Notes under the pieces: generated by a model
Databases searched by the model: none
Told to the model about the DNA's origin: nothing
What the model saw: the letters and a program-made list of their open reading frames with translations, nothing else
Position numbers and translations under genes: made by a program
Part shown: positions 1 through 39,757 of the stretch, piece after piece
Numbering within the stretch: position 1 is the stretch's first letter
How the letters are laid out: each line of letters starts with the position of its first letter
DNA from: an uncultured Lentisphaeraceae bacterium
GTDB taxonomy: Bacteria; Verrucomicrobiota; Kiritimatiellia; RFP12; DVOR01
DNA: 64,000 nucleotides
Direction of reading: 5' to 3'
Assembly (NCBI GenBank): GCA_949282555.1
Contig: CASDPK010000005.1
Location: 1-64,000, forward strand

Positions 1-1
1 C

Positions 2-781
2 CGCGCCCTTACAAACCCCTTCCGCTTCTCCTCCGAATTCCACGACGACACCCTCGCCCTCGTCTACTACAACTACCGCCACTACAACCCCAAAGACGGC
101 CGGTGGCTGGGAAGGGATCCTGCAGGTGAAGAAGAGATAGGATTATGGCTATTTACTAAAAATTCACCCGTGTTCTTGATAGATATTTTAGGGCTTGAAT
201 GTACAAAACAATCCCCCACAAATGTTTCATTGTCTGCATCAGGGGATCTTTATGAGGGTTTCGGAGGAAGTATTGCTGTTGATTTAACTGGAACAGTTTA
301 CGATTGTTGTTGTGATGGACAACTCTACTACAAAGATGCGTTTGAACTTTCACTTACCATTACTGCTGAAATTGGTTTGGGTATTGGCTATCAGCACACG
401 TTGCCTGTTGTTGGTAAGGTTGGCGGAGTAATAAAGGGGCCTCAATATCACGTTTCTGGCGGCGGTGCCTTCTCAAAAGAATGTCGTAAGGATCAATGGT
501 CTGGCGAAATAACACTACTGGATATGCGGGGACGTGGAAATATAAGTGGAACCGCTGGTCTCTTTTGGGAGGCTAGTGCTGGTTATTCATGGGATTATGG
601 TCTCACAATAAAAGCCATGATGCAAGGGAAAGACAAAATTCGAATTGTCGGAACATATGGTTATCAACGTTCAGGAACAGTATCTGGAGGTGCGGGAGCG
701 GTAACAGTCGGAAAACCATTTGCTGAGGCGGATTTTAGAAAAGTTTTTCTTGACATGCGCATTAAACTACCTTGGAGGTGA
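2..781 (+). CDS. RHS/YD-repeat protein, 3' end (5' end lies outside the window), with the RHS core motif followed by a variable C-terminal toxin domain of about 220 aa
   Basis: Frame-2 translation from base 2 reads ...FRFSSEFHDDTLALVYYNYRHYNPKDGRWLGRDPAGEEE..., the conserved RHS repeat-associated core. It continues without a stop into the 170..781 ORF, a Gly-rich, low-GC domain of unknown fold. GC drops sharply after the core, as is typical of polymorphic toxin tips. Confidence 0.8.
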   Translation, partial: RALTNPFRFSSEFHDDTLALVYYNYRHYNPKDGRWLGRDPAGEEEIGLWLFTKNSPVFLIDILGLECTKQSPTNVSLSASGDLYEGFGGSIAVDLTGTVYDCCCDGQLYYKDAFELSLTITAEIGLGIGYQHTLPVVGKVGGVIKGPQYHVSGGGAFSKECRKDQWSGEITLLDMRGRGNISGTAGLFWEASAGYSWDYGLTIKAMMQGKDKIRIVGTYGYQRSGTVSGGAGAVTVGKPFAEADFRKVFLDMRIKLPWR

Positions 782-783
782 CA

Positions 784-1098
784 ATGCAAAAAGATGTTGT
801 TTCGATATTAATCGTATGGTTCGTTTTCGCCCCCATTTTCTTTACTGCACTTCTACTGTTTGGAATTGTCGCATTTCGACATTTACCGACACTTTTTCAT
901 AGCGTGCGAATTAAATCACTAGAACACAAGGGAAAAGCTTTTCCCAAACGTTTTTTTGTCGTCTTTCGTGAACAGCAGAAAGAGTGGAACCACGCTATGC
1001 AAAAAGAGGAAAAACTCCTTCATGTGGCTTACGTCCTCTATGCGTTAGCAATAGGCGTGTTACTCCTTCTTGCTCCCATCGTCTTCTTGCTCTTTTAA
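784..1098 (+). CDS. Putative cognate immunity protein, small two-TM membrane protein
   Basis: The ATG lies 2 nt after the toxin stop and 4 nt after a GGAGGTGA RBS. The 104-aa product has two hydrophobic helices. Position immediately 3' of an rhs toxin tip fits the immunity position. Confidence 0.55.
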   Translation: MQKDVVSILIVWFVFAPIFFTALLLFGIVAFRHLPTLFHSVRIKSLEHKGKAFPKRFFVVFREQQKEWNHAMQKEEKLLHVAYVLYALAIGVLLLLAPIVFLLF

Positions 1099-1128
1099 TT
1101 TTCGGTAAAGTGTTGAATCCCTCTTCAT

Positions 1129-2274
1129 ATGAGTAAGTGTAACTCTACAGCGAAGAATGCCACCGATGATATCACGGGTGAGTGGGCGGTGGAATGCAAC
1201 GCCGAGAATCGCCCCATCCGTTGGACGCAGGGGAACAAGGTCATCACCATGGGCTTTGACCGCATGGGGCGGCGGGTCTTCTACAAGGAGATGGAAGGCA
1301 ACCGCCAAATCACCCACACCCATCCAACAACTCTTTTCCAACAGCCCGTGGAACGTCTACAAGGAGTTCATTTGGGATCCCACGGAGCCCCTCGCCACGC
1401 GCCCCCTCTGCTTCCGACAGTACGGCCAGCGCTCGGCCTTCCTCCTGCACGACGGCAACAAGAATGTGACCGACGTCGTCACCGTCGGCCCCTTCAATGA
1501 GCCCGTCGCCCACTACGACTACGCCCCCTTCGGCGCCGTCACCGCCACAGGTGCCCGCGCCCTTACTACAACTACCGCCACTACAACCCCAAAGACGGAA
1601 GGTGGCTGGGGAGGGATGCCGTGGAAACCGAAAATGTTTATTCGTTTTGTGGGAACGACAGTATTACAATCGTCGATGTATACGGTAGAGTTGGGATTAA
1701 TACTAAACTTTTGAGCTATTATATGTCGCGTCTAGGTAATGGAAGAGTTATAAACGGAATAATTGACATCCTCAGTTCTGACTCCGAGGGGTACTACTCG
1801 TTTACTGATTCTGAGGATGAATTAAAAAGTGATTTTGTAGCGATAGCAAAAAATGCGGTTATTCACGATGCCGTAGATATTACGATTGACGAGTTCAATG
1901 TATGGACTACTCGTTCTTTTAGTACAACTAAAAGTTGGCAAATATCTGAGAAATTTAGGGTTACGCTCAACTCTTCTTCTCGAGTTGAGCTCTCTGGGAC
2001 ATATAAGGTAAAACAATGTGAAGATGGGAGACGTTTCGTTAAAGATGCAACCTGTGATGTTGTGTGGTATGATGAGATGGATGCGAACTCTTTTCGGGAA
2101 CTTTACTACAAAGAAGTCATAGGTGGGGGTGGATGGGAAAAAGTCTCTTCAAGTCGGGCGATAATTTTGATTACAGAGGGGCTTGTAGACTTAGTTGGGG
2201 ATAAAACATTAGGAGCTGACTTTAAGTTTAAAATCAGCAAGTCTGTCCGTTATGGCGGTTGTTGTGAGGAGTAG
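1129..2274 (+). pseudogene. Orphan rhs C-terminal cassette 1: rhs repeat/core fragment interrupted by frameshifts, carrying an alternative C-terminal toxin domain (1621..2274)
   Basis: Three overlapping frames (1129..1500, 1157..1714, 1621..2274) together encode GEWAVECNAENRPIRWTQGNKVITMGFDRMGRRVFYKEMEGNRQITHT ... YDYAPFGAVTATG ... LYYNYRHYNPKDGRWLGRD plus a new toxin tail. Compared with the gene at bases 1-130, about 55 nt are missing between ccgcgccctta and ctacaactaccgcc, which shifts the frame. There is no start codon at the fragment 5' end. Confidence 0.6.
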
Positions 2275-2275
2275 A

Positions 2276-2845
2276 ATGAAAAAGAAATACGTTTTGTTTG
2301 TTGTCGTTTTCCTCTTGGGGATACTTGTCGGAGGACTGTTTACTGCTTTGGACATGAATGTCACCAAGATTGGGCATTTATCGGACACGCATCTCAATGA
2401 TTCGTTAAATCAATGGTTGAAGGGCACCTTTCCACAGTTCAACGATAACGGCTCATGGATAATTGAGTTCGACAAGAAAAGTAATCCCCGCCACTCAACA
2501 CGGTCTTTTATTGTGCCGATACACACAACGATAGGAAGGTGGCGCGTATGGCGCCAAAAGTGGAATGGAAAGATTCGGGTAAAGTACCGTGTGGCGACAA
2601 ATCTATCGGTGGCTCCATCCAGCGAAACCGCGCTTGAATCTATTCTGTATCGCCTTCTTCAAGAGAAGGAAATTATGAGGTGGGAATGGCCTGATATCGT
2701 TTCAGAAACTGAAGGACGCTTTGTCTATTGTTTTAGCTCAAAAGCGCTTTTGAGAATGGAACAAGAGGCCCCTGATGATTTTCCTATTTTACTGGTTTTC
2801 CTGCTGAATAATGTTCCGCTTTGTGAGTCTGTAAATGATCTTTAG
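2276..2845 (+). CDS. Putative immunity protein for orphan toxin 1 (N-terminal TM/signal anchor)
   Basis: An ATG directly follows the toxin-2 stop (gaggagTAGaATGaaaaag). The product MKKKYVLFVVVFLLGILVGGLFTAL... is low-GC and unrelated to the flanking genes. Confidence 0.5.
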   Translation: MKKKYVLFVVVFLLGILVGGLFTALDMNVTKIGHLSDTHLNDSLNQWLKGTFPQFNDNGSWIIEFDKKSNPRHSTRSFIVPIHTTIGRWRVWRQKWNGKIRVKYRVATNLSVAPSSETALESILYRLLQEKEIMRWEWPDIVSETEGRFVYCFSSKALLRMEQEAPDDFPILLVFLLNNVPLCESVNDL

Positions 2846-3137
2846 TCGCAGAGCCTCTGTTCATCCCATTGCGGGCGAGTGGACGGTGGAATACAACGCC
2901 GAGAATCGCCCCATCCGCTGGACGCAGGGGAACAAGGTCATCACCATGGGCTTTGACCGCATGGGCCGGCGGGTCTTCTACAAGGAGATGGAGGGCAACC
3001 GCCAAATCACCCACACCGTCTTCCTCTACGATGGCTACCTCTGCATCCAGCAACTCTTCCCCAACAGCCCGTGGAACGTCTACAAGGAGTTCATTTGGGA
3101 TCCCACGGAGCCCCTCGCCAAAGGAACACACGAATGA
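2835..3137 (+). pseudogene. Orphan rhs fragment 2, truncated: repeat region only, no core and no toxin
   Basis: GEWTVEYNAENRPIRWTQGNKVITMGFDRMGRRVFYKEMEGNRQITHTVFLYDGYLCIQQLFPNSPWNVYKEFIWDPTEPLAKGTHE*. The roughly 245 nt at 2880-3125 is a near-identical direct repeat of 1180-1400. The frame ends before the YYNYRHYNP core. Confidence 0.6.
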
Positions 3138-3652
3138 AGAAACGTATCGTACATCATTACGTGCTCTTCGTTGGCATATGCCTCTTGGGAGGGATGCTTT
3201 CTTTGTTGCTTTTAACGAAAGGAAGCAAAGCTTTGCCATTGGGCGAGGTGTTGAGCGAGGATTTTGATAACGTAACAAAAGAAACCTCCGCCCTGCTCGG
3301 CGACATTCCGGAGTTAAATGCAAGGACAACGCTGGTTACTTGTCTCAGCACTTATGATCTCATCTTCTATGTGGAGGTTCAGGTTGTTCAACTTTGGATA
3401 ACCCCAACCGTATGGAAGCGATGGCGACAATTATCTTCGTCAGGGGGCACTATGCGAGAATTGACGCTCGAGCGAATGATTCCCATTTGGCGTGAGGTGG
3501 CCCAAACGTTTTTGCCGACCGATTCATCTTACTTATATTGGAATTATCCGTTAAAGAACGGTTGGCGAGTGTCGATGATGTCGGCGTCTCATCAGGCGAA
3601 CCATCGTCTAATTCCTGTGTTGGTCGTATTTAGGCGTCCAGGTGTGCGTTAA
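3134..3652 (+). CDS. Small membrane protein, putative orphan immunity gene fused by an ATGA overlap to rhs fragment 2
   Basis: The ATG overlaps the fragment-2 stop. The 172-aa product has an N-terminal TM (HYVLFVGICLLGGMLSLLLL) and is low-GC. Confidence 0.4.
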   Translation: MKKRIVHHYVLFVGICLLGGMLSLLLLTKGSKALPLGEVLSEDFDNVTKETSALLGDIPELNARTTLVTCLSTYDLIFYVEVQVVQLWITPTVWKRWRQLSSSGGTMRELTLERMIPIWREVAQTFLPTDSSYLYWNYPLKNGWRVSMMSASHQANHRLIPVLVVFRRPGVR

Positions 3653-3753
3653 TCTTTGCTTATAGATGGCAGCGATTGACGTTTTGCGAAGCGATGTTTT
3701 GTGTTACCCACCCAAGAAGGTATAATGTGAATGTGCATAGAAAGGAGTTTCCC

Positions 3754-4299
3754 ATGAGATGCGGTCTGATTCTATTGTTGTCTATGTTTTACACGCTTGC
3801 CACCCCCCTTTTTGGGCAAGCGCAGGCAAATGCCGAGCTTCCAGCGCGCGCCTCTACGGAAATGGCAGAGGAGATCTATGAAAAGGCCACGGAGATCGGC
3901 AAATTGTGGCAACTGATTCCCCCGACAGTAACGCAAAGAGAGGTGAAAAGCAGTCATTGGGGGGATTTTGTCGCAAACATTGTATGGCTCAACGTGCTCT
4001 TTGCCCGTGTTGGAAATCTCCCAGTGAACGAACCCGCGACGTTTGAAACGTTTTGCAAAGAAGAAGAACACAACATAAAGCGGAGAGGGGAAATTCTGTC
4101 GTATTTCACAAAAGAAGAAACACGAATGCTATTTAATCTAACGACGTTTGCCACAAACAAGAAAGTCGCGCAGGGTGTCATCGATTATCTTTCCAAGCAA
4201 AACAAGCTCGATGAGTTCAATGCGCGATTATTGAAGATACGTAATGCGTACACCAAAGAGACAGAGATCGTCCACAAAATCCTCCGTGGACCTATTTAA
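3754..4299 (+). CDS. Secreted hypothetical protein with a signal peptide
   Basis: AAGGAG RBS followed by ATG MRCGLILLLSMFYTLATPLFGQAQA. There is a TATAAT box about 30 nt upstream. The region is low-GC. Confidence 0.45.
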   Translation: MRCGLILLLSMFYTLATPLFGQAQANAELPARASTEMAEEIYEKATEIGKLWQLIPPTVTQREVKSSHWGDFVANIVWLNVLFARVGNLPVNEPATFETFCKEEEHNIKRRGEILSYFTKEETRMLFNLTTFATNKKVAQGVIDYLSKQNKLDEFNARLLKIRNAYTKETEIVHKILRGPI

Positions 4300-4506
4300 T
4301 ACGTTATGATCAACGTCTACCCATGGCGAGAATTTGAGACCTGCGCCGATCTCTAACGCCACTGGGGACGCCGTGTCAAGAGACGCACGGTGAGACATAC
4401 GAAAACTTGCCAAGAATGCACACAGGTTTTCAATTCTCTCTTTTGTGTTACACTTGCATGATGGTTCGACGGTCAATCGATCCTGTAAACGAAAGGACAA
4501 CAACAC

Positions 4507-19806: not shown

Positions 19807-20454
19807 TCAAAGCGCCCTGAGCAACAAATTCACCAACGGCACGAAAAAGTGACCATTCCAATTGAGCAGCCCCACCTGTACCGGCGACCGCCCAAAGTTG
19901 ATCAACCCAACCTGAAACCACCGAGGGCTCCCGGCATTGAGAACCCCGGCCTGAAAGCCCTGATAGGCCTCTGTGGGGGCGAAGTTGGCCACGCCCAATT
20001 GCACCAAATCGCCGGGGTTCGACTCAGCCCCGCGCCGAGCGAGATTGAGCACCCCGAGATGGGCGCCATCGAAGCGGTCGCCCGTCAGGTTCACGCCGCC
20101 CAGCAACACCCCCGCGCCACCGCCCGGCGTCAGATTCACGGCAGCGCCCTGCACGCCGACAAACCGCTCCGCCTGGGCGAAGATCGGGGACAGATGCAGT
20201 CCCCCACCCTGTTCCGAGACCATTCCCACCAAGGCCACCTGTCCGCCATAAAGCCGACCGCACCCACTGAACACCGCCAGCGAGGGCCCCGCCACCGTGG
20301 AAGCATCCTCCCAATAGAGCGCGAACCGCGAGCACGTCCATCCCGGAACCTCGCTTGCCGCGGCCGCATGGTTGCCGATTTGCGCGAGTCGGTTGTTGCA
20401 ACCCGCGAGCATCCCCGCGAGAAGCGCCAACGCCAAACCACCGCCACGCATCAT
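19807..20454 (-). CDS. Lipoprotein with degenerate G-[VL]-x-N short repeats
   Basis: MMRGGGLALALLAGMLAGC lipobox. Repeats include GVLNLA, GVANFA, GVLNAG, GLINFG and GLLNWN. It lies between the two SPFH genes. Confidence 0.55.
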   Translation of the reverse strand: MMRGGGLALALLAGMLAGCNNRLAQIGNHAAAASEVPGWTCSRFALYWEDASTVAGPSLAVFSGCGRLYGGQVALVGMVSEQGGGLHLSPIFAQAERFVGVQGAAVNLTPGGGAGVLLGGVNLTGDRFDGAHLGVLNLARRGAESNPGDLVQLGVANFAPTEAYQGFQAGVLNAGSPRWFQVGLINFGRSPVQVGLLNWNGHFFVPLVNLLLRAL

Positions 20455-20464
20455 CGCCCCTCCC

Positions 20465-21970
20465 TCACTTGGTCGGTTGCGCGGCCGGCGCGGCAGGTCC
20501 AAGCGGCAATCCGAAAGGACGATCGCCGCGGGGCGTCGTCAAGACCGATTCCACGCGCGGCGCGGCCTTTTCGTAGAGCTTCATCCGCACGTAATCCGCC
20601 TCATCCCGATAGACCCCGACTTCCTGTCGGAGCACATCGGCGAAAGCTTTGGTGCGCGCCTCCACCACCTTCCGTTCGGCCTCGGCGGCCGTGAGTTTGG
20701 CCTCTGCGGTCTTCACGGCCGCCTCATAGGCCACCTTGGCGACGTCGCGCCGGGTTTCGGCGGCAATGGTCTGCTCCGTCTTGCGCCGCTCTGCGGCGAT
20801 GCGCTGCTGGATCTGCTCCGTCTGCGCCATCACCAGCGCAGAGCTTTGCGTGGCCAACGCCTTTTGCCGTTCCAGCTCGGCTTGGGATTCCGCCTGCGCC
20901 ATCTGCTGGTCAATCTTGTGCGACTCCTGAACGGCAAGCTCCCGATCCCGCACAATCCCGGCAATGGCCTGCGGCGCGAAAATATCCCGAATCAACACGG
21001 AATTGAGCGAAATCCCCCACGGCTTGCAGACTTCGCGGAGATAGGCTTCCAGCCGATCCTGAAAGTCTTGGCGGCTTTCGCCGACGATGAACTCCGTGGC
21101 CACCTTCTTGCTGCCTTCAATTCTGGAAAAGCCGCGCGCACTCGGAAGAATCAACTTTTGGAGGATGTCGTCCATGTCGCCGACCTCCTGCGTCAGCAAC
21201 GCCACCTTGTCCTCATCAAGATTGAATTCGAGGGTGCCCTCCGCCGTGACGGAAAAACCGTCGAGCGTCAAAAACGTGATCGCGTCAGCCCCCGAAAGTT
21301 CAAACCGCTGGCTCTGCACGTTGACGATCGAAACGGCATAAAGGAAGGGATTGAGCCGGTGCGTTCCCTCCTTCAGCACGCTCCGGCGAACGCCCTTGGA
21401 GCCCTCCGCGGAGAGAAACCCTCGGGAACCCTCCTCCGTGGCAGGGGCGCCCCCTTGAAGTCCGTCCGCCCCCACCAGCGCCGTCACCACCCCCACATGA
21501 CCGGGACGAATGCGGATGTCATCATACAACCGCACCTCATAGGCATAGGGATTGATGCGGTGGCGGCCCGTGCCCAACACGTCGCGGACAATTCCCTTCG
21601 AGTCGGCATCGCGCGCGATAATCTCGCCCTCCGGCAATGGCTTGCCGTATTTCCGGATGAGCACGCCGAATTTCCCCGCCGGGATATCCGTCATGCGGAA
21701 AATCTCCCAATCCCAAACATACGGGTTGCGGAAATAACGGCCCTCCGGCAACACCTCCGCCTGAATCCCCTTGTATTCGGGCCCCGGCGCCAAAATGGCC
21801 TCCGCCGGGAGATCCTTTCCCGTCTTCCGGATCAACACCGCGAACGTGCCATTGCCCGGCTCGATGCGCCACCCAAACCACACCCATAGCGACCCGAGCA
21901 GGACAACCGCAAACACCGCGGCCACCGCCATTGCCTTAACGTTCAACGTCCACACGCGCTTCACTTCCAT
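20465..21970 (-). CDS. SPFH/band-7 protein A, paralog of B
   Basis: Same architecture as B: TM, three N-terminal repeats (FGVLIRKYGKPLPEGEIIA...; HVGVVTALVG...), an SPFH core and a C-terminal coiled coil. Confidence 0.7.
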   Translation of the reverse strand: MEVKRVWTLNVKAMAVAAVFAVVLLGSLWVWFGWRIEPGNGTFAVLIRKTGKDLPAEAILAPGPEYKGIQAEVLPEGRYFRNPYVWDWEIFRMTDIPAGKFGVLIRKYGKPLPEGEIIARDADSKGIVRDVLGTGRHRINPYAYEVRLYDDIRIRPGHVGVVTALVGADGLQGGAPATEEGSRGFLSAEGSKGVRRSVLKEGTHRLNPFLYAVSIVNVQSQRFELSGADAITFLTLDGFSVTAEGTLEFNLDEDKVALLTQEVGDMDDILQKLILPSARGFSRIEGSKKVATEFIVGESRQDFQDRLEAYLREVCKPWGISLNSVLIRDIFAPQAIAGIVRDRELAVQESHKIDQQMAQAESQAELERQKALATQSSALVMAQTEQIQQRIAAERRKTEQTIAAETRRDVAKVAYEAAVKTAEAKLTAAEAERKVVEARTKAFADVLRQEVGVYRDEADYVRMKLYEKAAPRVESVLTTPRGDRPFGLPLGPAAPAAQPTK

Positions 21971-22154
21971 GGCAAACCCTCATTTCCAGTCTGTCGTAAA
22001 CCATACCACATCCCCCACACCTTTTTCAACGTATGAAATTGCACACAAAAGAACGGGAAGGTGCCCCATTGAGCAGGTCAAAGGCCGGCAAGAAAAGGAA
22101 ACTCTCGCGTATCTATCCCAACCGGTTGATCCAATTGACTTGCAAATGGTATGC

Positions 22155-22922
22155 CTAATGGTATTTCCAATATTTTGACTCTTCGATTTTAATGAATGGC
22201 AGACATTCTTGGATTTGAGCGGCAAGTTTACGCGCTCTTGCTCTCGTCTTATAATAAGAAGAACCAACATACGCGCTTGGTAAGAGTTTATATTTCTTTC
22301 CATTCGATGCTATTCTCAGCGCGAATCCCCAACCTCCCCTTGAATACAGAGGCTCAACGAGTAGTCGCTCTTCGCCTGTAAACCGACACTTTCGTCGCCA
22401 AAGTCTGTTTCCACAGTGCATTGTTCGAGTGTCGATAAATACTTCTGCGGAATAAGGGAAAATACATTCCACCATCTCTTTTACGCACCAAAACATAAGA
22501 ATCGTACCTGCAAGAAAAAATAATTCCACAACGAAATATGCCAGCAATCTGGCATCGCAGGCCTGCCCGTCAAATATGCAAGCAACCAGCAATCGAACCC
22601 ATAAGTAGAAGCAGAGAAGCATAAACATCAAAGAAATGCCCGCCCAAACCACTAATTGTATAACCCATCCCAATGGCAAAAGACCTACGTTCACCCTTAA
22701 TACATGATCAACGTAACTCACAATAATTCTTGGCTCTTTGGTTGTATACAGTATCATTCTTGTTCTCCATGCCATTTCACGATAACATCCATAACGAAGG
22801 ATATGACCTGTGATGGTGTCATAAGTCTCCGACTGCTTACGTTCCCCATCCATGGAAGTGCCCATCGTTCGACCGAAGGCCTCCCAATGGCGGGTGAGAG
22901 TCTTGGCGTAAAGACCGCCCAC
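22155..22922 (-). CDS. Hypothetical membrane protein (low-GC island)
   Basis: 255 aa with 3-4 TM helices, in a low-GC region. No recognisable family. Confidence 0.4.
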   Translation of the reverse strand: MGGLYAKTLTRHWEAFGRTMGTSMDGERKQSETYDTITGHILRYGCYREMAWRTRMILYTTKEPRIIVSYVDHVLRVNVGLLPLGWVIQLVVWAGISLMFMLLCFYLWVRLLVACIFDGQACDARLLAYFVVELFFLAGTILMFWCVKEMVECIFPYSAEVFIDTRTMHCGNRLWRRKCRFTGEERLLVEPLYSRGGWGFALRIASNGKKYKLLPSAYVGSSYYKTRARARKLAAQIQECLPFIKIEESKYWKYH

Positions 22923-23120
22923 GTGCGGCGAAACTTGTTGAGCCTTGGCAATCCATCTTGGGAGATCTTTTCCTCTCCCTCCCGTTTTCTATTCTCCTCT
23001 TCCGGCGCATCATTGCCACACGTTCGAAATACCGCTTGGTAAAGATGGAGAAAACACATGACAATTAATGGAAAGCAGAAATCACATTGCAGCCCTGTTA
23101 CAGTCTACGTGTGCTCAACG

Positions 23121-23711
23121 CTAAAACCCCCTCTCTTGCCACAATTTCACCTCATAGGCATCTGGTACACGTTGGGCCTCCCAGATTTTAGCGTGTTTCC
23201 CATAGGGTATAATAACATCAAAAGGCCACACACAAGAATAATCTCGAAAGCCAAGTCTCGAGATTACGCCTTGCAAATGAATTGTTTCCTCCGAAAAATG
23301 AACAACCTTGCATCGCATTAAAAGTCCACAATAAAGTTCCTCTTTGCACCATTCTTGCCCCTTCAGATAATGGAAATAATCCGATGGCGTATCACGTTTT
23401 TCCACGATAAAAAACTCATTTTCTTTGCTGAAATCACAACGAGGGATTTCAACACCAGGCAAAGTGACACAATCGAGCGATGATTCATTGCCTTGCGCAT
23501 CCTTCCAAACATCCGTCCACCAAGCGCGTAATGTAATCCCTTCCGTAACGCCAGCGTTGTGGATTCGATTCACTTGAAGCGCAATGGACGAAACACGATG
23601 AAGCGATGCAAGCTCAATATGAGGTGTATCACCTTTTGTTGTGCAACCGGATAAAATAAAACACAAAAGGAATCCGACAATACAGAATACATTGGTCAAT
23701 CGTGTCGTCAT
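23121..23711 (-). CDS. Hypothetical lipoprotein (low-GC island)
   Basis: MTTRLTNVFCIVGFLLCFILSGC lipobox, 196 aa. Confidence 0.45.
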   Translation of the reverse strand: MTTRLTNVFCIVGFLLCFILSGCTTKGDTPHIELASLHRVSSIALQVNRIHNAGVTEGITLRAWWTDVWKDAQGNESSLDCVTLPGVEIPRCDFSKENEFFIVEKRDTPSDYFHYLKGQEWCKEELYCGLLMRCKVVHFSEETIHLQGVISRLGFRDYSCVWPFDVIIPYGKHAKIWEAQRVPDAYEVKLWQERGF

Positions 23712-24086
23712 TTTTCGCGATCCTTTCGGTGCAGAATGTCAATCGGGGGAATAGATGATGGACTGTTTGCAGGCGTTGTTCCTATTATTGCTCGGATAAA
23801 TTGTCAAAATGTGCCGATTTTTGAAGAATGGGTTCCCAAAACGTCACGCCAAGTGGATCGTCTTGGCATCGTTCAAGGATGGTCCGACGTGCTTTGGTCC
23901 TGATTCCTGAATCGGCCCATCGTGCGAGCATGTGTTATCCGGAGTTGAAATAAGCTCATTCAACTCGTCCTTGGAGAAATCCTCATATGGATCGGACAAT
24001 CGGCTGGGGCGCGTATACAATTTTTCAACGGCCACTTTCAATCGTTCCCATTCCATACTTCACTCCTCTTTCGGGTGTCCAACACG

Positions 24087-24494
24087 TCAAGGGTCAATCA
24101 CCTTTGTATTCGTAATCGGAGGGAGCATGATGCACTTTCCCGTTGGGTCAATCTCAAGGCGGCGACATGCGGGACGTTCCTTGGGAGGAATAACACTCCC
24201 ATTTGACATCAGTAACGCGAGATCTATGTCATGGTACATTGGGGGTGCATTGGGAGGCACTTCGGGAATCGCAAAATGAACTTCACAATATCCGGGATAT
24301 TTTGGGAAAAAATGAAAATAGTACCGCCCATAATCGGAGAGTCGTTTCCCCTCTTGCTCCAAAAGAAACTTATTTGCGTAATAGATAAGTTTCTCCTCAT
24401 GTGTCAGTGAAGGCCCAAGACAGCCGGAAAACACAAAGGTAAGGGCAAACATAAAGATTAAATAAGGTCGTATAGTCATCTCAATTTTCCTCAT
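24087..24494 (-). CDS. Small lipoprotein, paralog 1 of a tandem pair
   Basis: Signal/lipobox FVFSGC. LTHEEKLIYYANKF and the YPGYCEVHF block align with the downstream paralog. Confidence 0.45.
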   Translation of the reverse strand: MRKIEMTIRPYLIFMFALTFVFSGCLGPSLTHEEKLIYYANKFLLEQEGKRLSDYGRYYFHFFPKYPGYCEVHFAIPEVPPNAPPMYHDIDLALLMSNGSVIPPKERPACRRLEIDPTGKCIMLPPITNTKVIDP

Positions 24495-24996
24495 GAAGCG
24501 TGGTGCTTGTTTTTATGTGCTTTTGCCGGCTCGGGGAACGTTGGTCCGGCACATCATGAAGGGTGTCGTTCGCTTTTATGTGTTTCTGCCGAATGCTGAA
24601 AGGTTTTTCTTCTCTCATTTCCTCTTCACTTGGCCAATCCATCTTCCCATACGTTATGAAAGTATTAAGTGAGAATATTTCCCCTGACGGGCGATAGATA
24701 AATCGCTCAAATGTGGGCGCTGACAGATAACTTCGTTGCCCCCATCGATTATCATTTTTACCTTTCCTGAATCCCCACTCCACATAATATCCTGGAAGGT
24801 CGCCAAACGGCGGCGCGACAAAAAAATCCCCACATTCCGTCATCTTCACATTGTACTCTTCTTTGGCGTATTGATTCGCACGAAAGATGAGTTGTTCCTC
24901 CATCGTCATGTTAAGCCGATAACATCCCAAAGGCAACAAGGACGTTATGACTATCATCAAAGGAAGAAAAGAACATTTCATAAACGTGAAGGGCAA
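24481..24996 (-). CDS. Small lipoprotein, paralog 2, with a C-terminal tandem repeat
   Basis: Lipobox LLPLGC. MTMEEQLIFRANQY and the LPGYYVEWGF block match paralog 1. The C-terminal RQKHIK(A/T)..TLH repeat is encoded by an approximately 42-bp DNA tandem repeat at about 24486-24570. Confidence 0.45.
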   Translation of the reverse strand: MPFTFMKCSFLPLMIVITSLLPLGCYRLNMTMEEQLIFRANQYAKEEYNVKMTECGDFFVAPPFGDLPGYYVEWGFRKGKNDNRWGQRSYLSAPTFERFIYRPSGEIFSLNTFITYGKMDWPSEEEMREEKPFSIRQKHIKANDTLHDVPDQRSPSRQKHIKTSTTLHEEN

Positions 24997-25006
24997 CGTG
25001 AGAGTT

Positions 25007-25483
25007 TTAGTTGTGGAGTGTCAATAGATGTGCGAAGGGCATTTGAGAGAACTCGAAAAATACGCATGCATTAGATGACCTTTTTGGATGGGTGTGGATA
25101 GTGAATGATGGGCGGTAGCACCGTTCCCCATCTCGTTTACGCTCGTGGAGATAGAACGTGACATCCGTGGAGATGAGCTCATCGCAGGCATTGTAGCCAT
25201 TCTGTTCATCGTTGATAAAACGCAACAACAACCAAGGAAGGGTGTCCCCCTCTTCGATTTCCGCACATGTGCTCCCGCAAACACCATATGCGAATGCTAC
25301 CACATACTGGGACTCGTAGTAAAGAATACGCTCAGCAATGTCTCGCGAGCCTCTACCGAAAAGAAGAAACAACAACGTGACGTAGGGCACCACATTGTGC
25401 GATATAGTGCATCCGGGGGAGAGATGCGGAGCACCCCGAGGGGAGATATAGTGTGTCCCGTCAAATGCCGGATGGCGCCACAT
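25007..25483 (-). CDS. Hypothetical protein. The start is uncertain because the listed ORF extends antisense into the GH3 gene.
   Basis: Moderate-GC ORF. The internal Met at MWRHPAFDG was chosen to avoid overlap with the GH3 gene. No family recognised. Confidence 0.25.
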   Translation of the reverse strand: MWRHPAFDGTHYISPRGAPHLSPGCTISHNVVPYVTLLFLLFGRGSRDIAERILYYESQYVVAFAYGVCGSTCAEIEEGDTLPWLLLRFINDEQNGYNACDELISTDVTFYLHERKRDGERCYRPSFTIHTHPKRSSNACVFFEFSQMPFAHLLTLHN

Positions 25484-25610
25484 CCTTGGCCCGTCTTGAA
25501 ACGATATGCCTACAGCAGAAGGCAGGCGAGCCGATGGCACACCTAGGCCGTGTTCCGAAGTGTTGCAATGTGTTACCTTTCCTTTAGGGTAAGTAACCGA
25601 AAGGAATCTT

Positions 25611-27917
25611 ATGAAGCGGCAGATACTCGGACTGGCCTTGACGGTGGCAGCGTTCTCCCCCACAGCCGTGGGCGCCCAGGGCATCGCGACCATCACTCCG
25701 ACGGAGGGCACACAGGGAATGCCCACAGGCTCGGTGGAGCGTGTGGCATTGGTGCGGCAGACAGATTCCCCGCCGGCAGATGCGCTTTATCGTGACCCGA
25801 AGCAACCCATCGAGGCCCGGGTGGAGGATTTGATGAAACGCCTCACGCCCGAGGAAAAAGCGCGGATGGTGCACGCCAGCAGCGGCTCCAGTTCGGGGAA
25901 CCTGCCGCGCGTCGGCCTTGCGAACGTCCGCACACTCGATGGCCCCAACGGCACACGGGCCGATCGCCCCGTCACCTATTTCCCTTCGGCCATTGCCTAT
26001 GCCGCAACGTGGGACATGGACTTGGTGGAGGAGATTGCGCGCACGCTGGGCAAAGAAACGCGCGCGGTTTACAAAACCGAAGAGAGCGGCGCGCGAATGC
26101 TGTTGGGCCCGGGCGCAAACATTGCCCGCACGCCGTTGGGTGCGCGCAACTTTGAATATTTCGGCGAAGACCCCCTCCTCTCGGGCAAAACGGCGGCGGC
26201 TTACTGCCGGGGCTTGCAATCGGTCAAAGTGTCGCCGTGCATGAAGCACTGGGTGCTGAACGATCAGGAGTGGTGCCGCACGGTGCTCGATGTCGATGTC
26301 CCCGACCGCGCCCTCCACGAGATTTACGCAAAACCCTTCGAGATCGCCGTGCGCGAAGCGGGCGTTTGGGCCGTGATGGGCAGCTACAACGCCGTGCGCG
26401 GGCACTATTCCTCGCATTCCTCGGAAATCAATGATCTGTTGCGCTCCTATGGATTCGATGGGGCGATTTATTCCGACTGGGGCGGCTGGCATGGCGACGT
26501 TCCCGCGCTCAATGGCGGCGCCACCTTGGAATCGGGCACTTGGCAGAATGCCGAGCGCGACCGCCGCAACGCGGAACAGGTGGCCAAAGGCATCATCCGG
26601 GCTGACCGTTTTGAGGATGCCGTGCGCCGCAATCTGCGCAACCTGTTCCGAATGGGCGCCTTTGACACGCAGACCGCCGAAGACAAGGCCGAACAGGCCG
26701 CCTACGAACGTGACTTCCGCTCCGAAGCCCATCGCCGCATCGCCCGGAAGGCCGCCGTCTCCTCCGCCGTTCTGCTCAAAAACAAGGATGGCTTCCTCCC
26801 GCTCAACCGCGAGAAGATCCGCACGGTGGCGCTCATCGGCCCCAATGCCGACCAGACCCACTCGATGATTGGCGGTGTGCACCTCAAGGATCGCGGCGGC
26901 AGCGGTGCGGTGCTCGCCGCACGGGAAGTGACGCCCCTCATGGCCTTTGTCGAAGCCTTCGGGAAGGAGAACGTTCTTTTCGCCCCCGGCTTCCGCTTCG
27001 AGAACACCGACCGCAAGGACGCCGTCTCCGTTCCGGGAATGCCCGCCATGGACCCCGTGGAGGCCGCCCGCCGCGCCGATGTCGTGATCTTCTGCGGCGG
27101 CTTGGACCATTCGCTCGACCGCGAGGTGCTTGGCTGGGGCCACATCAACCCCTCCGACCGCCCGAACCTTGAGCTCAAAGGCCCGCAGGCCGAGCTCATC
27201 AAGCGTGTCGCCGCCGTCAATCCGCGCACCGTCGTGGCGCTCACCATCGGCGCCCCCGTCTCCGTGGAGGCGTGGGAGGCCGCGGTGCCCGCCGTGCTCG
27301 TGACCTGGTATTCCGGCGAAGAGGGCGGAAACGCCCTTGTCGATCTCCTGTTCGGCAAAGAGAATCCCTCCGGGAAGCTCCCGTACACCTTCGGCAAGCA
27401 ATTGGAAGATTGGCCCTGCCACCGCATGGGGCCGGCCGTCTATCCCGGCGTCTTCACGCCCGAAGGCCCCTTCACCGCGCGGGAATATTACGCCGATGGC
27501 ATTTGGGTGGGCTATCGTGGGTTTGACCAATTCAAGCGCGAGCCACGGTATCCCTTCGGCTTCGGCCTCTCCTACACCACCTTTGCCATCTCCGAGGCCC
27601 CCTCCGACCCGCAACAGGGCATTTTCCGCGTGAAGGTGCGCAACACCGGCGCCCGCGCCGGGCGCGAAGTCGTGCAATGCTACGTTTCCAAGCCCAAGAC
27701 GGACGGCGAAGGGATGCCCGTCAAGGAACTCGTGGCCTTCGCCTCCGTGACGTTGGCGCCCGGGGAGGAACGGGTGGTTGAACTCGTCCCGAGCCCCGAC
27801 GCTTACCGCTACTGGAGCGAAAAGGCGAATGGTTGGCGGCCTGTCCGCGGCGAGTGCGTCTTCCGGATCGGCAATTCCTCGGCGAATCTGCCCGTCCGCC
27901 ACACGGTTCGCAAATGA
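25611..27917 (+). CDS. Glycoside hydrolase family 3 beta-glycosidase (BglX-like), secreted
   Basis: Signal peptide. Motifs KHWVLNDQE and GFDGAIYSDWGG (the GH3 catalytic Asp region), plus a C-terminal fibronectin-like domain. 768 aa. Confidence 0.85.
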   Translation: MKRQILGLALTVAAFSPTAVGAQGIATITPTEGTQGMPTGSVERVALVRQTDSPPADALYRDPKQPIEARVEDLMKRLTPEEKARMVHASSGSSSGNLPRVGLANVRTLDGPNGTRADRPVTYFPSAIAYAATWDMDLVEEIARTLGKETRAVYKTEESGARMLLGPGANIARTPLGARNFEYFGEDPLLSGKTAAAYCRGLQSVKVSPCMKHWVLNDQEWCRTVLDVDVPDRALHEIYAKPFEIAVREAGVWAVMGSYNAVRGHYSSHSSEINDLLRSYGFDGAIYSDWGGWHGDVPALNGGATLESGTWQNAERDRRNAEQVAKGIIRADRFEDAVRRNLRNLFRMGAFDTQTAEDKAEQAAYERDFRSEAHRRIARKAAVSSAVLLKNKDGFLPLNREKIRTVALIGPNADQTHSMIGGVHLKDRGGSGAVLAAREVTPLMAFVEAFGKENVLFAPGFRFENTDRKDAVSVPGMPAMDPVEAARRADVVIFCGGLDHSLDREVLGWGHINPSDRPNLELKGPQAELIKRVAAVNPRTVVALTIGAPVSVEAWEAAVPAVLVTWYSGEEGGNALVDLLFGKENPSGKLPYTFGKQLEDWPCHRMGPAVYPGVFTPEGPFTAREYYADGIWVGYRGFDQFKREPRYPFGFGLSYTTFAISEAPSDPQQGIFRVKVRNTGARAGREVVQCYVSKPKTDGEGMPVKELVAFASVTLAPGEERVVELVPSPDAYRYWSEKANGWRPVRGECVFRIGNSSANLPVRHTVRK

Positions 27918-35700: not shown

Positions 35701-37206
35701 GCGAGGCCGATCGGAAAGCACGGCCAATGCGGCATCGTTGCCCATGGAGCCGACGGGTTCCTGCCCCTGCGTCGCCATCGGGCGAAGAATCGTGGAAACG
35801 TCCTCCCGCGTGTAACCGAAACGCAGCTGACGTTCGGCAAGATCGCCGGGCACCGCCTCGGGAGCCGTCTCCCGGAAAAGGCCATCCACCGTGATACGGT
35901 TCTCCTCCACCCATCGACGATACGGACGGCGCCGTGCGACGTGGGCCTTGATTTCCGCATCATTCAGCAAGCGATGGGCCTCCAAATCCAGCCAAAGCAT
36001 CTCTCCGGGACGCAACCGTCCACGGCGGGCGACGGCCTCCGGCGGGAAATCAAGCACGCCCGTTTCGGAAGCCAACACAAACGTGCCATCTTTGCACAGC
36101 GTGTATCGGGCAGGGCGCAGGCCATTGCGATCCAAGACCGCACCTGCGCGCACACCATCGGAAAAGACGGCCGCCGCCGGTCCGTCCCACGGCTCCATCA
36201 GTGCCGAATGATATTCCAAAAAGCCGCGCACATCATTGCCCATGGCGTGTGTCGGCCCCCATGCCTGCGGCATCAGCATCAGCATGGCATGGGGCAACTC
36301 CCGCCCCGCCCGAACAAGCAATTCCAACATATTGTCAAGGCAAGCGGAGTCCGACTGCCCCGGCGGCACCAGCGGAAGCACCTTGGCCAAATCGACCCCG
36401 AACAATGGACTCTCAAAGCCACCTTCCCGTGCGCGGAGCGCGTTGAGGTTCCCGCGCAACGTGTTGATCTCACCATTGTGCGCAAGCAGACGGAAGGGTT
36501 GCGCGAGGTTCCATGTGGGGAAGGTGTTGGTGCTGTAACGCTGATGGGCAAGCACCAACGCGGAAGCGAAATCCTCCGCCCTCAAATCCTCGTAAAAGGC
36601 GTCCAACTGATGCGCCAGCAACAACCCTTTGTAAACCACACTCCGTGCGGACAGACTGCAAACGTACAAATCCTCACCCAACGCCTTCTCCAACCGCCGC
36701 CGGGCGACAAACAGTTTCCGCTCGAACGCCTCCCCTTGTCCCGTCAACGCCTCCCCCGTGGATTCCGCCACAAACACTTGGCGGATTCTGGGACAGGTGG
36801 CGCGGGCAGAACGCCCAATGGCCTCGGGATGGATTGGGACCTCACGCCATGCGAGCGTCTTCAACCCCTCCTCCGCCAAAAGGGCCTCCATCTGTGCCTC
36901 CCGGCCTTCCCCGCCAAACACCATCGCCACGCCATAGGTTCCCGGGGAGGGAAGATGGGGAAGACGTGCGCGGAAAAAGGCATCCGGCAGGGCAACCAAA
37001 ATGCCCGCACCGTCCCCCGTCTCGGGGTCCCACCCCGCCGCACCGCGATGCGTCAGCCGCCGAAGCACCGTCAATCCCTGTTCCACGATCCGATGGCTGG
37101 GATGGTTATTAAGGTCAGCCACCATCCCCACGCCGCACGCATCGTGCTCATTTTGTGGATCATAGAGGCCCTGTCGAGGCGGAAAACTGGTCGATTGTCC
37201 GTACAT
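32758..37206 (-). CDS. gltB: Glutamate synthase large subunit
   Basis: 1482 aa. Ntn amidotransferase start ...HDACGVG, FMN and Fe-S central domains, and a C-terminal GXXG repeat domain. Confidence 0.95.
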   Translation of the reverse strand: MYGQSTSFPPRQGLYDPQNEHDACGVGMVADLNNHPSHRIVEQGLTVLRRLTHRGAAGWDPETGDGAGILVALPDAFFRARLPHLPSPGTYGVAMVFGGEGREAQMEALLAEEGLKTLAWREVPIHPEAIGRSARATCPRIRQVFVAESTGEALTGQGEAFERKLFVARRRLEKALGEDLYVCSLSARSVVYKGLLLAHQLDAFYEDLRAEDFASALVLAHQRYSTNTFPTWNLAQPFRLLAHNGEINTLRGNLNALRAREGGFESPLFGVDLAKVLPLVPPGQSDSACLDNMLELLVRAGRELPHAMLMLMPQAWGPTHAMGNDVRGFLEYHSALMEPWDGPAAAVFSDGVRAGAVLDRNGLRPARYTLCKDGTFVLASETGVLDFPPEAVARRGRLRPGEMLWLDLEAHRLLNDAEIKAHVARRRPYRRWVEENRITVDGLFRETAPEAVPGDLAERQLRFGYTREDVSTILRPMATQGQEPVGSMGNDAALAVLSDRPRLLFDYFKQRFAQVTNPPIDPIRERSVMSLMTYVGNRANILAETPAHARLIKMRRPVLTDAELEHLGRVGAEEFRPVTLRLAFPAGGDGIALADALERLADEAVSAAREHRIVILSDRDLSAEEAPIPSLLAVAAVNRALTEAGLRSETGLVVQSGEVREVMHFALLLGYGATAIHPWLALATVADLSARGLTGCDPVTATGNYIRAVDKGILKVMSKMGISTLRSYRSAQLFEAVGLGEELVSRYLPGTVSRIGGIGLDDVARDANRRNGLSHGEGGEAAPQAKGPILPAGGEHQWRADGERHLWTPQSLADFRQAVREGDYTLFRRYSDAIDHQAHRLCTLRGCFGFVPTQAIPLEEVEPEEAILRHFVSGAMSLGSLSPEAHETIARAMNAIGAMSNSGEGGENAERFGTERGSAIKQVASGRFGVTADYLRHARDLQIKMAQGAKPGEGGQLPGHKVDAFVARLRHAVPGLTLISPPPHHDIYSIEDLAQLIYDLRTVNPKARISVKLVSEAGVGTVAAGVAKAHADVILVAGHDGGTGASPLSSIHHAGMPWELGLAETHQTLVLNRLRNRVRLQVDGQLRTGRDVVIGALLGAQEFGFATTILVCLGCVMMRVCHSNTCPAGVATQDPELRKRFAGKPEYIVNFLRSVAREARETLASLGLRSLDEACGRSDLLCVDPEASIGKAAALDFSAVFRHVTPSAPEPVEAKEPAGTFDREQLIPAFRLEPVPQEASFDVRNTDRSVGTGLAGEIAAHFGGEGLPEGTLTAHLHGVAGQSLGAFLTAGVTLDLEGEANDYVGKGLSGGTVIVRPPVVDGFVPEANVVAGNVIGYGATAGKIFIGGLVGERFAIRNSGATLTCEGTGDHGCEYMTGGRVLVLGPTGGNFAAGMTGGLAYVLDETGDFDLRCNLESVDLENVEPGSEAAEELRALIAAHVAATGSPKGRRIMEALGDWLPRFVRVFPVEYRRVLGRVMPNH

Positions 37207-37486
37207 GGGATTCCTTTCTAGTCGTTCCCCTCTCTTGCAACATCCATGCCAAACCTCTCCTGCCCCATCCTTTCGGGGCTACAGCACGCCCTCCTCCCGT
37301 TCAAAAAGAACAAAATTGTAATACCCCAATCTACCGCCAAAAGACAACGCCCACACAACCCCCGAGAAATCAAATGGAAGGCTTCCCGGTTTACAAAAAC
37401 GAAATATCATATATAAGGAATTACATAACTGTAATTCCCACCTTTTCCCAACCGGGAGCTCTTCCATTCATAACCGATCCTTATAG

Positions 37487-37690: not shown

Positions 37691-39757
<2,067 letters not shown>

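What the first reader, a model, noticed from the sequence alone, without database searches (positions are those of the whole stretch)
21980..25600. Low-GC island of small membrane and lipoprotein genes, candidate orphan immunity or defence islet
Between two high-GC operons lies about 3.6 kb of markedly lower GC. It encodes on the minus strand a 255-aa TM protein, a 196-aa lipoprotein, a tandem pair of paralogous small lipoproteins and further small ORFs. There are no mobility genes. Small exported proteins of foreign composition clustered together resemble arrays of acquired immunity genes against polymorphic toxins. The island also sits directly upstream of the SPFH operon promoter.
Basis: inference. 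Interest (0 to 1): 0.55.

Follow-up and report, generated by a model that had tools for sequence, protein, structure and literature searches.

The report
Orphan RHS-toxin immunity gene islet
This low-GC patch in a gut Kiritimatiellae genome looks like the stripped-down remains of an RHS toxin cassette array that kept its small membrane and lipoprotein "antidote" genes and lost the toxins, a known kind of bacterial self-defence islet seen here in an unstudied phylum.

Summary
Window 22000-25500 has 45.8% GC against 60.7 +/- 1.7% for the host. It carries five co-oriented minus-strand genes with no Pfam, NCBIfam, PHROG or PADLOC match, and no mobility gene.

- The island contains a frameshifted remnant of an RHS orphan module (25111-25324).
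- In other contigs, homologues of gene A (true length 200 aa, not 255) sit directly after an RHS C-terminal toxin, with overlapping stop and start, or after a decayed RHS end.
- Homologues of lipoprotein B sit between two RHS core ends.
- The same genome has a low-GC RHS toxin/immunity array at window 1-4500.
- A, B and E evolve under purifying selection (dN/dS 0.2-0.35).
- Strains differ by whole cassettes. C-B-A is present or absent, and an extra lipoprotein gene flanked by duplicated RHS remnants occurs in some.

Gene A models confidently as a PH-like domain split by a transmembrane hairpin. Its only significant structural match is the eukaryotic chaperone EROS.

Protection was not tested, and the evidence for C, D and E is positional only. 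I rate this a new member of a known kind, of moderate interest.

The parts
22000..25500 (.). Low-GC island (45.8% GC; host 60.7%)
   Evidence: Same compositional class as the RHS CT/immunity array at window 1-4500.
25111..25324 (-). Frameshifted remnant of the 5' end of an orphan RHS module ('MVFAGAHVRKSKRGTPFLG', then in another frame 'FINDEQNGYNACDELISTD')
   Evidence: 73% nt identity to L062:164-371, the start of a 508-aa orphan RHS module. tblastn E = 6e-9. It matches residues about 1200-1223 of the species' own 1354-aa RHS protein. It is duplicated in L014/L016 around an extra lipoprotein gene.
25007..25483 (-). ORF F (158 aa), called in some assemblies; probably not a gene, since it is read across the RHS remnant
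   Evidence: It was not called in several identical contigs. No homologues outside the species.
24481..24981 (-). Gene E: 166-aa exported protein (signal peptide MKCSFLPLMIVITSLLPLGC, non-canonical lipobox), first gene after the RHS remnant; candidate orphan immunity gene; hot spot of strain divergence
   Evidence: 50 of the 66 differences between the window and L002 over 10.1 kb fall in 24500-24999, inside this gene (61 of 66 lie in 24000-25250). dN/dS is 0.27-0.35. The C-terminal tail holds a 63-nt-period internal repeat.
24087..24479 (-). Gene D: 130-aa lipoprotein (MTIRPYLIFMFALTFVFSGC), weak paralogue of E; its ATG lies 1 nt after the E stop codon
   Evidence: Its stop codon is exactly the breakpoint of the variable C-B-A module.
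23844..24056 (-). Gene C: 70-aa acidic protein without signal peptide, AGGAG ribosome-binding site; function unknown
   Evidence: Found only in this species.
23121..23711 (-). Gene B: 196-aa lipoprotein (lipobox ILSGC), predicted all-beta; candidate orphan immunity gene
   Evidence: Only 3 homologue clusters among 5.8 billion. In L060 and L061 the 74%-identical homologue starts 24 nt after an RHS core end with a deleted toxin, and is followed by another RHS fragment. dN/dS is 0.24. The AF2 model is poor (pLDDT 57).
22155..22757 (-). Gene A: 200-aa inner-membrane protein, a PH-like domain split by a TM hairpin (EROS-like); orphan copy of the cognate immunity gene of an RHS-CT toxin family
22100..24086 (.). 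Variable module (C, B, A): present in the window and most contigs; replaced by about 240 bp of unrelated sequence in L014, L015 and L016
21971..22099 (-). Conserved SPFH upstream region, not part of the island: terminator-like hairpin 22052-22070 and promoter-like site 22000-22029
   Evidence: consensus matches only.
1..4500 (+). Context: end of an RHS gene plus an orphan RHS-CT/immunity array of the same genome (RHS core ends at 2-121 and about 1171-1653, partial core at 2853-3119; small TM or exported ORFs at 772-1098, 2276-2845, 3134-3652 and 3754-4299)
   Evidence: TIGR03696 50.2 bits against a cut-off of 32.5. The full 1354-aa RHS protein is seen upstream in L065.

Best explanation
The island is a toxin-less relic of RHS 'orphan' cassettes, retained as an array of orphan immunity genes.

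In this Kiritimatiellae lineage, RHS polymorphic toxins are encoded as a GC-rich RHS shell. This is followed by low-GC modules, each made of an RHS core end, a variable C-terminal toxin and a small immunity gene whose start overlaps the toxin stop. At 22000-25500 the RHS and toxin parts have been deleted down to a 214-bp frameshifted remnant. The downstream small genes stay intact and under purifying selection.

Gene A is a membrane-embedded PH-like protein, inferred to have its N- and C-termini in the cytoplasm. It would bind and neutralise an incoming beta-rich, Cys-motif RHS toxin at the inner membrane. The lipoproteins B, D and E would neutralise periplasm-acting toxins. Because the strain lacks the matching toxins, the genes would protect it against toxins fired by competing strains.

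Cassettes are gained, lost and swapped by homologous recombination at RHS remnants and gene boundaries, without a dedicated recombinase.

Shown: composition, the RHS remnant, toxin linkage of A and RHS linkage of B in other contigs, selection, strain variability, and the fold of A.
Inferred: neutralisation, topology, toxin targets, and the role of C, D and E.
For: - RHS remnant in the island at 25111-25324.
- L062: a 508-aa orphan RHS module (TIGR03696 56 bits, cut-off 32.5) carries an approximately 210-aa C-terminal toxin. Its stop overlaps the start of an A homologue that is 86% identical.
- L064: a 43%-identical A homologue lies behind the same toxin family's C-terminus, again overlapping.
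- L063: a 62% A homologue lies behind an RHS core end with an internally deleted toxin.
- L060 and L061: a B homologue lies between two RHS core ends, the first 90% identical to the window's own RHS end.
- The same window has an RHS toxin/immunity array at 1-4500 with matching GC and GC3 and similar small TM or exported ORFs.
- dN/dS is 0.20-0.35 for A, B and E.
- Cassette-level polymorphism occurs among strains whose SPFH protein is 100% identical. C-B-A is present or absent, and an extra 229-aa lipoprotein gene is flanked by two copies of the RHS remnant.
- Divergence is concentrated in gene E.
- The island proteins are absent next to the SPFH pair in 42 related-species loci.
Against: - No experiment shows protection or expression.
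- D, E and C have no homologues outside this species, so their role rests on position after the RHS remnant and on protein type only.
- B's cognate toxin was never seen. Its linkage comes from essentially one independent context, since L060 and L061 are near-identical.
- One A homologue (L059, 46%) is not next to RHS. It lies next to an IS110 transposase fragment, a lipoprotein and a zeta-toxin-like kinase.
- No immunity-family Pfam model matches any island protein.
- The contexts of the 20 more distant A-family members could not be retrieved.
Confidence: 0.75

Rival explanations
1. Functionless relic. The island is a decaying former rhs locus, or a piece split from the nearby array. Its small ORFs persist only because too little time has passed for them to erode.
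For: - The toxin and RHS parts are deleted or frameshifted.
- ORF F looks like a pseudogene.
- The C-B-A module is dispensable in some strains.
- D, E and C have no homologues elsewhere.
Against: - A, B and E keep intact reading frames across alleles that differ by 10-57% in amino acids, with dN/dS of 0.20-0.35.
- Deletions removed the toxins precisely while sparing the downstream genes and their start regions. The same pattern is seen in L063 and L060.
- The island is identical in many independent metagenome samples.
Confidence: 0.12
2. Generic horizontally acquired islet of envelope proteins, such as surface, adhesion or niche factors. The link to RHS would then be coincidental, because both tend to land in the same variable, AT-rich regions.
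For: - B, D and E are exported or lipoproteins without recognisable domains.
- The composition is foreign.
- The L059 context of an A homologue lacks RHS.
Against: - The stop/start overlap of an RHS-CT toxin with A homologues in two divergent contexts (86% and 43% identity) is the signature of a cognate toxin-immunity pair, not of chance neighbourhood.
- An RHS remnant lies inside the island itself and is duplicated around a further lipoprotein cassette in L014.
Confidence: 0.1
3. Anti-phage defence islet or toxin-antitoxin module.
For: Low-GC, strain-variable islets of small unknown genes are also typical of defence islands. One A homologue lies next to a zeta-toxin-like kinase.
Against: - No PADLOC, PHROG, Pfam or NCBIfam hit for any island protein.
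- No enzymatic or nucleic-acid-binding domains. All products are small membrane or exported proteins.
- A has no match in phage or plasmid collections.
Confidence: 0.03

Closest known systems
Orphan rhs-CT/rhsI modules and orphan immunity genes downstream of rhs loci in Enterobacteria (for example Serratia Rhs orphan immunity, PMC10539506; Salmonella orphan rhs, PMC7043789)
   Same: - Low-GC modules follow a GC-rich RHS core.
- Each immunity gene lies immediately after, and overlapping, the toxin.
- Truncated RHS fragments serve as recombination handles.
- Strain-level variation is by cassette.
- Orphan immunity genes occur without a cognate toxin.
   Different: - Here the array lies 17 kb from the rhs locus, in the opposite orientation, between housekeeping operons.
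- The RHS and toxin parts are almost completely erased.
- The host is a Kiritimatiellae bacterium (PVC group). I found no paper on RHS systems in this group.
- The delivery system is unknown.
Acquired interbacterial defence clusters (AID-1/2 and recombinase-associated rAID-1) of gut Bacteroidales (Ross et al., bioRxiv 10.1101/471110)
   Same: - A gut bacterium carries an array of co-oriented orphan immunity genes.
- GC content is skewed.
- The genes are homologous (43-86%) to cognate immunity genes found next to toxins elsewhere.
- The presumed role is defence against neighbours' contact-dependent toxins.
   Different: - No XerD-like recombinase, no ICE and no integron-like intergenic repeats.
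- Much smaller (5 genes).
- The cassettes derive from RHS modules rather than from Bacteroidales T6SS effector loci.
Putative T6SS immunity islet of Salmonella Typhi (PMC7400221)
   Same: A small chromosomal islet of immunity-type genes without the toxins.
   Different: I only saw this paper's title and abstract in the search list. The gene families, phylum and RHS-remnant architecture differ.
EROS (CYBC1, PDB 8kei_D) membrane chaperone
   Different: There is no detectable sequence relationship (12-14% identity; no Pfam hit in any of 24 family members). The similarity is of fold and topology only. The biological context, bacterial toxin immunity, is unrelated.

Membership tests
RHS orphan toxin/immunity module array | RHS/YD-repeat core sequence adjoining the cassette | tested here: met
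   Only as a remnant. Window 25111-25324 is homologous to the 5' end of an orphan RHS module and to residues about 1200-1223 of the species' RHS protein. No TIGR03696 core end remains in the island.
RHS orphan toxin/immunity module array | Variable C-terminal toxin domain after the RHS core end (DPxGL-type motif) | tested here: not met
   No toxin domain or core end is present in the island. The toxin partnered with A elsewhere has no match in the 64-kb window. The island is therefore a toxin-less derivative, not a complete module.
RHS orphan toxin/immunity module array | Small immunity gene immediately downstream of the toxin gene, often overlapping it | tested here: met
   Met for homologues of A: ATGA overlap in L062, overlap in L064, and a decayed toxin in L063. 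Met for homologues of B: 24 nt after an RHS end in L060 and L061. In L014 the extra lipoprotein start overlaps the stop of the remnant ORF.
RHS orphan toxin/immunity module array | CT/immunity part has lower GC than the host and the RHS core | tested here: met
   Island genes A, B, D and E have GC3 of 0.39-0.47. The window 1-4500 array genes have 0.29-0.53. Host genes have 0.67-0.80.
RHS orphan toxin/immunity module array | The immunity protein specifically neutralises its toxin | not testable with these tools
   Needs co-expression or competition assays.
rAID-1 / AID clusters (Bacteroidales) | 5' XerD-family tyrosine recombinase (rAID-1), or location on an ICE (AID-1) | tested here: not met
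   The definition is taken from 10.1101/471110. The island is flanked by GH3 and SPFH genes, and no island ORF has a recombinase or mobility domain.
rAID-1 / AID clusters (Bacteroidales) | Repetitive, integron-like intergenic sequences | tested here: not met
   The repeat search found only short chance-level pairs and an intragenic repeat in E. The only cassette-flanking repeat is the RHS remnant duplicated in L014.
rAID-1 / AID clusters (Bacteroidales) | Two or more co-oriented genes of skewed GC, homologous to cognate immunity genes | tested here: met
   Five co-oriented low-GC genes. A is 43-86% identical to toxin-adjacent homologues.
EROS / Ycf4-type split PH membrane proteins | PH-like beta-sandwich interrupted by a two-helix TM hairpin | tested here: met
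EROS / Ycf4-type split PH membrane proteins | Sequence membership in the corresponding Pfam families | tested here: not met
   No Pfam family matches A or is shared among the 24 A-family members. The PDB sequence search gives nothing relevant.
Known anti-phage defence systems | Match to a PADLOC model | tested here: not met
   0 hits for 7 island ORFs at E <= 0.1.
Bacterial lipoproteins | Signal peptide ending in a canonical lipobox, [LVI..][ASTG..][GAS]C | tested here: met
   By inspection of the sequence. B (ILSGC) and D (VFSGC) are canonical. E (LPLGC) and the L014 229-aa protein (LQTGC) deviate at position -3, so for them lipidation is uncertain.

The most novel reading that the evidence does not exclude
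Gene A founds a previously undescribed family of RHS immunity proteins, with about 27 representatives at 50% identity among 1.8 billion proteins. Its mechanism would be unusual: a PH-like domain split by a transmembrane hairpin, the architecture of the eukaryotic chaperone EROS, that captures a new beta-rich, Cys-motif RHS toxin at the inner membrane. In this reading the islet also shows that immunity-only arrays can form and diversify away from the rhs locus, purely by recombination at eroded RHS remnants and without any recombinase or mobile element. This would be a recombinase-free counterpart of Bacteroidales AID clusters in the PVC superphylum.
Probability: 0.45. Interest if true: 0.5.

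Novelty: new member of a known kind. Interest (0 to 1): 0.4.

Why it matters
Orphan immunity genes are thought to shape strain coexistence in gut communities. They have been characterised mainly in Bacteroidales and Proteobacteria.

This locus extends the phenomenon to gut Kiritimatiellae, which are uncultured and genetically unexplored. It links two orphan protein families (A and B) to RHS toxins. It also supplies a testable toxin-immunity pair: the L062-type RHS-CT domain with the A family. A's confidently modelled membrane-embedded PH-like fold suggests how a membrane-acting toxin might be intercepted.

Practically, the result shows that small low-GC islets of unannotatable lipoprotein or TM genes can be assigned by looking for eroded RHS fragments and for the neighbours of their rare homologues.

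Tried and rejected
- Profile searches of all island ORFs gave nothing meaningful: Pfam, NCBIfam, PHROGs and PADLOC, and Pfam on 24 A-family members.
- PDB sequence searches for A, B and the L062 toxin domain gave nothing relevant.
- The AF2 model of B was too poor to use (pLDDT 57), so I made no fold search with it.
- afdb50 was unavailable.
- tblastn of the RHS core, toxin and array immunity proteins against the island found no remnant other than 25111-25324. The spacers between D and B and between B and A remain unexplained.
- The array immunity-type ORFs at window 1-4500 are not homologous to island proteins.
- The repeat, promoter and terminator scans gave no cassette-defining repeats.
- I considered an inversion that split one ancestral RHS array into the two low-GC regions, because the RHS fragments at the two sites are in inverted orientation. 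It could not be tested, because synteny around the SPFH pair is not conserved between species.
- The different left flank in L006 is a 443-bp piece of an unrelated CGGC-domain gene, most likely an assembly chimera.
- Two exact-protein look-ups of array ORFs found nothing, because the gene starts differ.
- A has no plasmid or phage matches.
Full report
**Observation**

The composition profile shows GC dropping from 0.60-0.68 in both flanks to 0.41-0.50 between about 21980 and 25450. The island at 22000-25500 has 0.458 GC. All 3.5-kb windows in the rest of the host sequence average 0.607 (sd 0.017, minimum 0.565). GC3 of the island genes A, B, D and E is 0.39-0.47, against 0.67-0.80 for neighbouring genes.

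- A: 22155-22922 as listed, but really 22155-22757.
- B: 23121-23711.
- C: 23844-24056.
- D: 24087-24479.
- E: 24481-24981.
- F: a doubtful ORF at 25007-25483.

D and E are weak but significant paralogues (32% over 47 residues just after the lipobox Cys, E = 8e-6). No Rfam family or tRNA lies in the island. None of the ORFs matches Pfam, NCBIfam, PHROGs or PADLOC. The flanks are a GH3 glycosidase (25611-27917, plus strand) and an SPFH/Band-7 gene (20465-21970, minus strand).

**Organism and distribution**

The SPFH protein finds its closest relatives (up to 85% identity) in gut and rumen MAGs labelled Kiritimatiellae, 'Candidatus Spyradenecus' or Lentisphaeraceae. In all 42 related-species loci the SPFH pair is present. 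None of the island proteins, GH3 or YmdB lies nearby, and there is no low-GC stretch upstream of SPFH. Synteny around the pair is generally not conserved between these species, so this is absence rather than a clean empty site.

The clean comparison is within the species. Contigs carrying the 100%-identical SPFH protein fall into variants.
- Most are identical to the window.
- L015 lacks 22100-24086 (C, B, A), which is replaced by about 240 bp of unrelated sequence. One breakpoint is exactly the stop codon of D.
- L014 and L016 lack the same module and carry an extra 930 bp near 25150-25198.
- In L002, 61 of the 66 differences over 10.1 kb lie in 24000-25250, and 50 of them lie in 24500-24999, inside gene E.

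The 129 bp next to the SPFH start are conserved in all variants.

**How rare the proteins are**

- B has three homologue clusters among 5.8 billion (97, 74 and 73% identity).
- A has four (100, 86, 62 and 46%).
- The D/E profile finds only its own clusters.
- All exact-sequence clusters are small and unnamed.
- An exhaustive HMMER profile search with the A alignment found 27 representatives at E <= 1e-3 among 1.84 billion. Almost all are about 200 aa and share a 'P.Y.RGDWG[FY]' motif.
- The alignments show that A starts at Met56 of the listed ORF (200 aa).

**The decisive lead: neighbours of the rare homologues**

In L062, the 86%-identical A homologue starts with an ATGA overlap on the stop of a 508-aa ORF. 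That ORF is an orphan RHS module. It has YD-type repeats and an RHS-associated core domain (TIGR03696, 56.1 bits against a cut-off of 32.5) ending '...YYNYRYYDPVMGRWLGRDNVED'. An approximately 210-aa beta-rich C-terminal domain follows, ending 'DDYNCCCEEKYGKQK'.

In L064, from an unrelated metagenome, a 43%-identical A homologue again overlaps the end of the same toxin family ('...LNWYAYANFGWKWF...GCCCEKKYGRRK*'). In L063, a 62% homologue follows an RHS core end (TIGR03696, 49.6 bits) whose toxin has been internally deleted.

In L060 and L061, the 74% B homologue begins 24 nt after an RHS core end with only nine residues of C-terminal extension. It is followed by another RHS fragment (TIGR03696, 35.4 bits).

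One A homologue (L059, 46%) is instead next to an IS110 transposase fragment, a lipoprotein gene and a zeta-toxin/AAA_33 kinase.

**RHS in this genome and in the island**

The window itself begins inside an RHS gene. Residues translated from 2-121 ('NPFRFSSEFHDDTLALVYYNYRHYNPKDGRWLGRDP') match TIGR03696 (50.2 bits) and are 90% identical to the L060 fragment. The reading frame continues into a C-terminal domain that runs to 781, overlapped by a 108-aa two-TM ORF. A second core end lies at about 1171-1653 and a partial core at 2853-3119, each followed by small TM or exported ORFs. In L065 the full upstream RHS protein is visible (1354 aa; RHS_repeat E = 1.7e-46). This array has the same low GC and GC3 as the island.

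Inside the island, 25111-25324 is 73% identical in DNA to the first 200 nt of the L062 orphan RHS module. It translates, with a frameshift, to 'MVFAGAHVRKSKRGTPFLG' and 'FINDEQNGYNACDELISTD', which correspond to residues about 1200-1223 of the species' own RHS protein.

In L014 and L016 this remnant is present twice, and the first copy extends further into a YD repeat ('DELISADDISYAYVDIENRT'). The two copies flank an additional 229-aa exported protein whose start overlaps the stop of the remnant ORF. This is the expected footprint of cassette gain or loss by recombination between RHS fragments. No other RHS remnant was detectable in the island, and the toxin partnered with A elsewhere has no match in the window.

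**Are the genes maintained?**

| Gene | Compared with | dN/dS |
|---|---|---|
| A | L062, L063, L064 | 0.28, 0.22, 0.20 |
| B | L060 | 0.24 |
| E | L015 and L002 alleles | 0.27 and 0.35 |

The dS between E alleles is 0.14-0.22, while the flanking GH3 has 0.02. This indicates allele replacement by recombination rather than local decay. ORF F behaves like non-coding sequence.

**Structure of A**

With a 24-sequence alignment, AlphaFold2 gives pLDDT 89.8. The model has a beta-hairpin (11-24), two long hydrophobic helices (29-63, 69-99), six strands (102-165), a C-terminal helix (168-185) and a last strand. It is a PH-like sandwich split by a TM hairpin.

The basic N-terminus and very basic C-terminal domain, against an acidic inter-helix loop, suggest that both termini and the PH-like domain face the cytoplasm. 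This is an inference from the positive-inside rule. B models poorly (pLDDT 57, all-beta).

**Interpretation**

The best explanation is a toxin-less derivative of RHS orphan cassettes that is kept as an orphan immunity array.
- A is the best-supported member, because it holds the cognate position in two divergent toxin contexts.
- B is supported by one independent RHS context.
- D, E and C are supported only by position after the RHS remnant, by protein type and, for E, by its evolutionary behaviour.

The mechanism is inferred, not shown: membrane or periplasmic immunity proteins binding incoming RHS toxins from competitors.

Rivals are a functionless relic (argued against by purifying selection and the precise sparing of the small genes), a generic envelope-protein islet (argued against by the toxin-immunity overlaps and the internal RHS remnant), and anti-phage defence (no support).

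**Comparison with known systems**

The architecture matches enterobacterial orphan rhs-CT/rhsI arrays and orphan immunity genes (PMC10539506, PMC7043789). Functionally it matches the acquired interbacterial defence clusters of gut Bacteroidales (10.1101/471110).

It fails the defining rAID features of a XerD-like recombinase and integron-like repeats. It is not on a recognisable mobile element, and A has no plasmid or phage matches. It is therefore an RHS-derived immunity islet and not an AID member. I found no paper on RHS systems in Kiritimatiellae, and none on PH-like immunity proteins.

**Verdict**

This is a new member of a known kind, with a modestly novel element in the A family's fold and its toxin partner. 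Interest is 0.4.

Noticed in passing
window 1-4500: The window starts inside an RHS gene. There are RHS core ends at 2-121 and about 1171-1653, and a partial core at 2853-3119. Each is followed by a low-GC C-terminal domain and small TM or exported ORFs (772-1098, 2276-2845, 3134-3652, 3754-4299). This is a full orphan RHS toxin/immunity array. Assemblies of this species usually break here.
   Followed up: partly
L065:2398-6462 (strain variant upstream of window start): In this strain the 1354-aa RHS protein ends prematurely at 'FIWDPTEPLAKGTHE', with no core end or toxin, and the array holds only two downstream ORFs. The number of RHS modules therefore differs between strains.
   Followed up: partly
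window 19807-20454 (-): A high-GC 215-aa lipoprotein gene (LAGC lipobox) sits between the two SPFH genes. In all related species the two SPFH genes are only about 90 bp apart and this gene is absent, so it is a lineage-specific insertion of native composition inside the SPFH operon.
   Followed up: partly
L059:1-3324: The most divergent close A homologue (46%) is not next to RHS. It lies after an IS110-family transposase fragment and before a 214/220-aa lipoprotein, a zeta-toxin/AAA_33-like kinase and a 61-aa ORF. This may be a different kind of toxin/immunity or TA neighbourhood.
   Followed up: partly
L060:705-795 and L061:680-770: A 46-nt tandem duplication of the 3' end of the B homologue ('FDVILPYEKQVKIW') lies at the junction with the following RHS fragment, which is read in another frame. 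It is either a recombination scar or an assembly artefact.
   Followed up: no
window 24491-24591 (-), C-terminus of gene E: There is an internal tandem repeat of 63-nt period (38-nt matched core), giving 'RQKHIKANDTLHD...RQKHIKTSTTLHE' in the tail of E.
   Followed up: no
L006:1-443: One contig (ERZ16268178 scaffold_1520) departs from the window at 25731, inside the GH3 5' end, and continues with an unrelated CGGC-domain gene. This is most likely a chimeric assembly and not a real rearrangement.
   Followed up: partly
window 56301-56950 and 37151-37700: Two further short low-GC patches. The first holds a 143-aa membrane-anchored ORF (56421-56852, minus strand). The second is the intergenic region between a large glutamate-synthase-like gene and a divergent 743-aa gene.
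   Followed up: no
window 170-781 and L062:1056-1727: Two unrelated RHS C-terminal domains both contain a 'Y[DN]CCC[DE]' motif and glycine-rich beta segments, and both are paired with small two-TM immunity-type proteins. They may be membrane-acting toxins. Neither has a Pfam or PDB match.
   Followed up: partly
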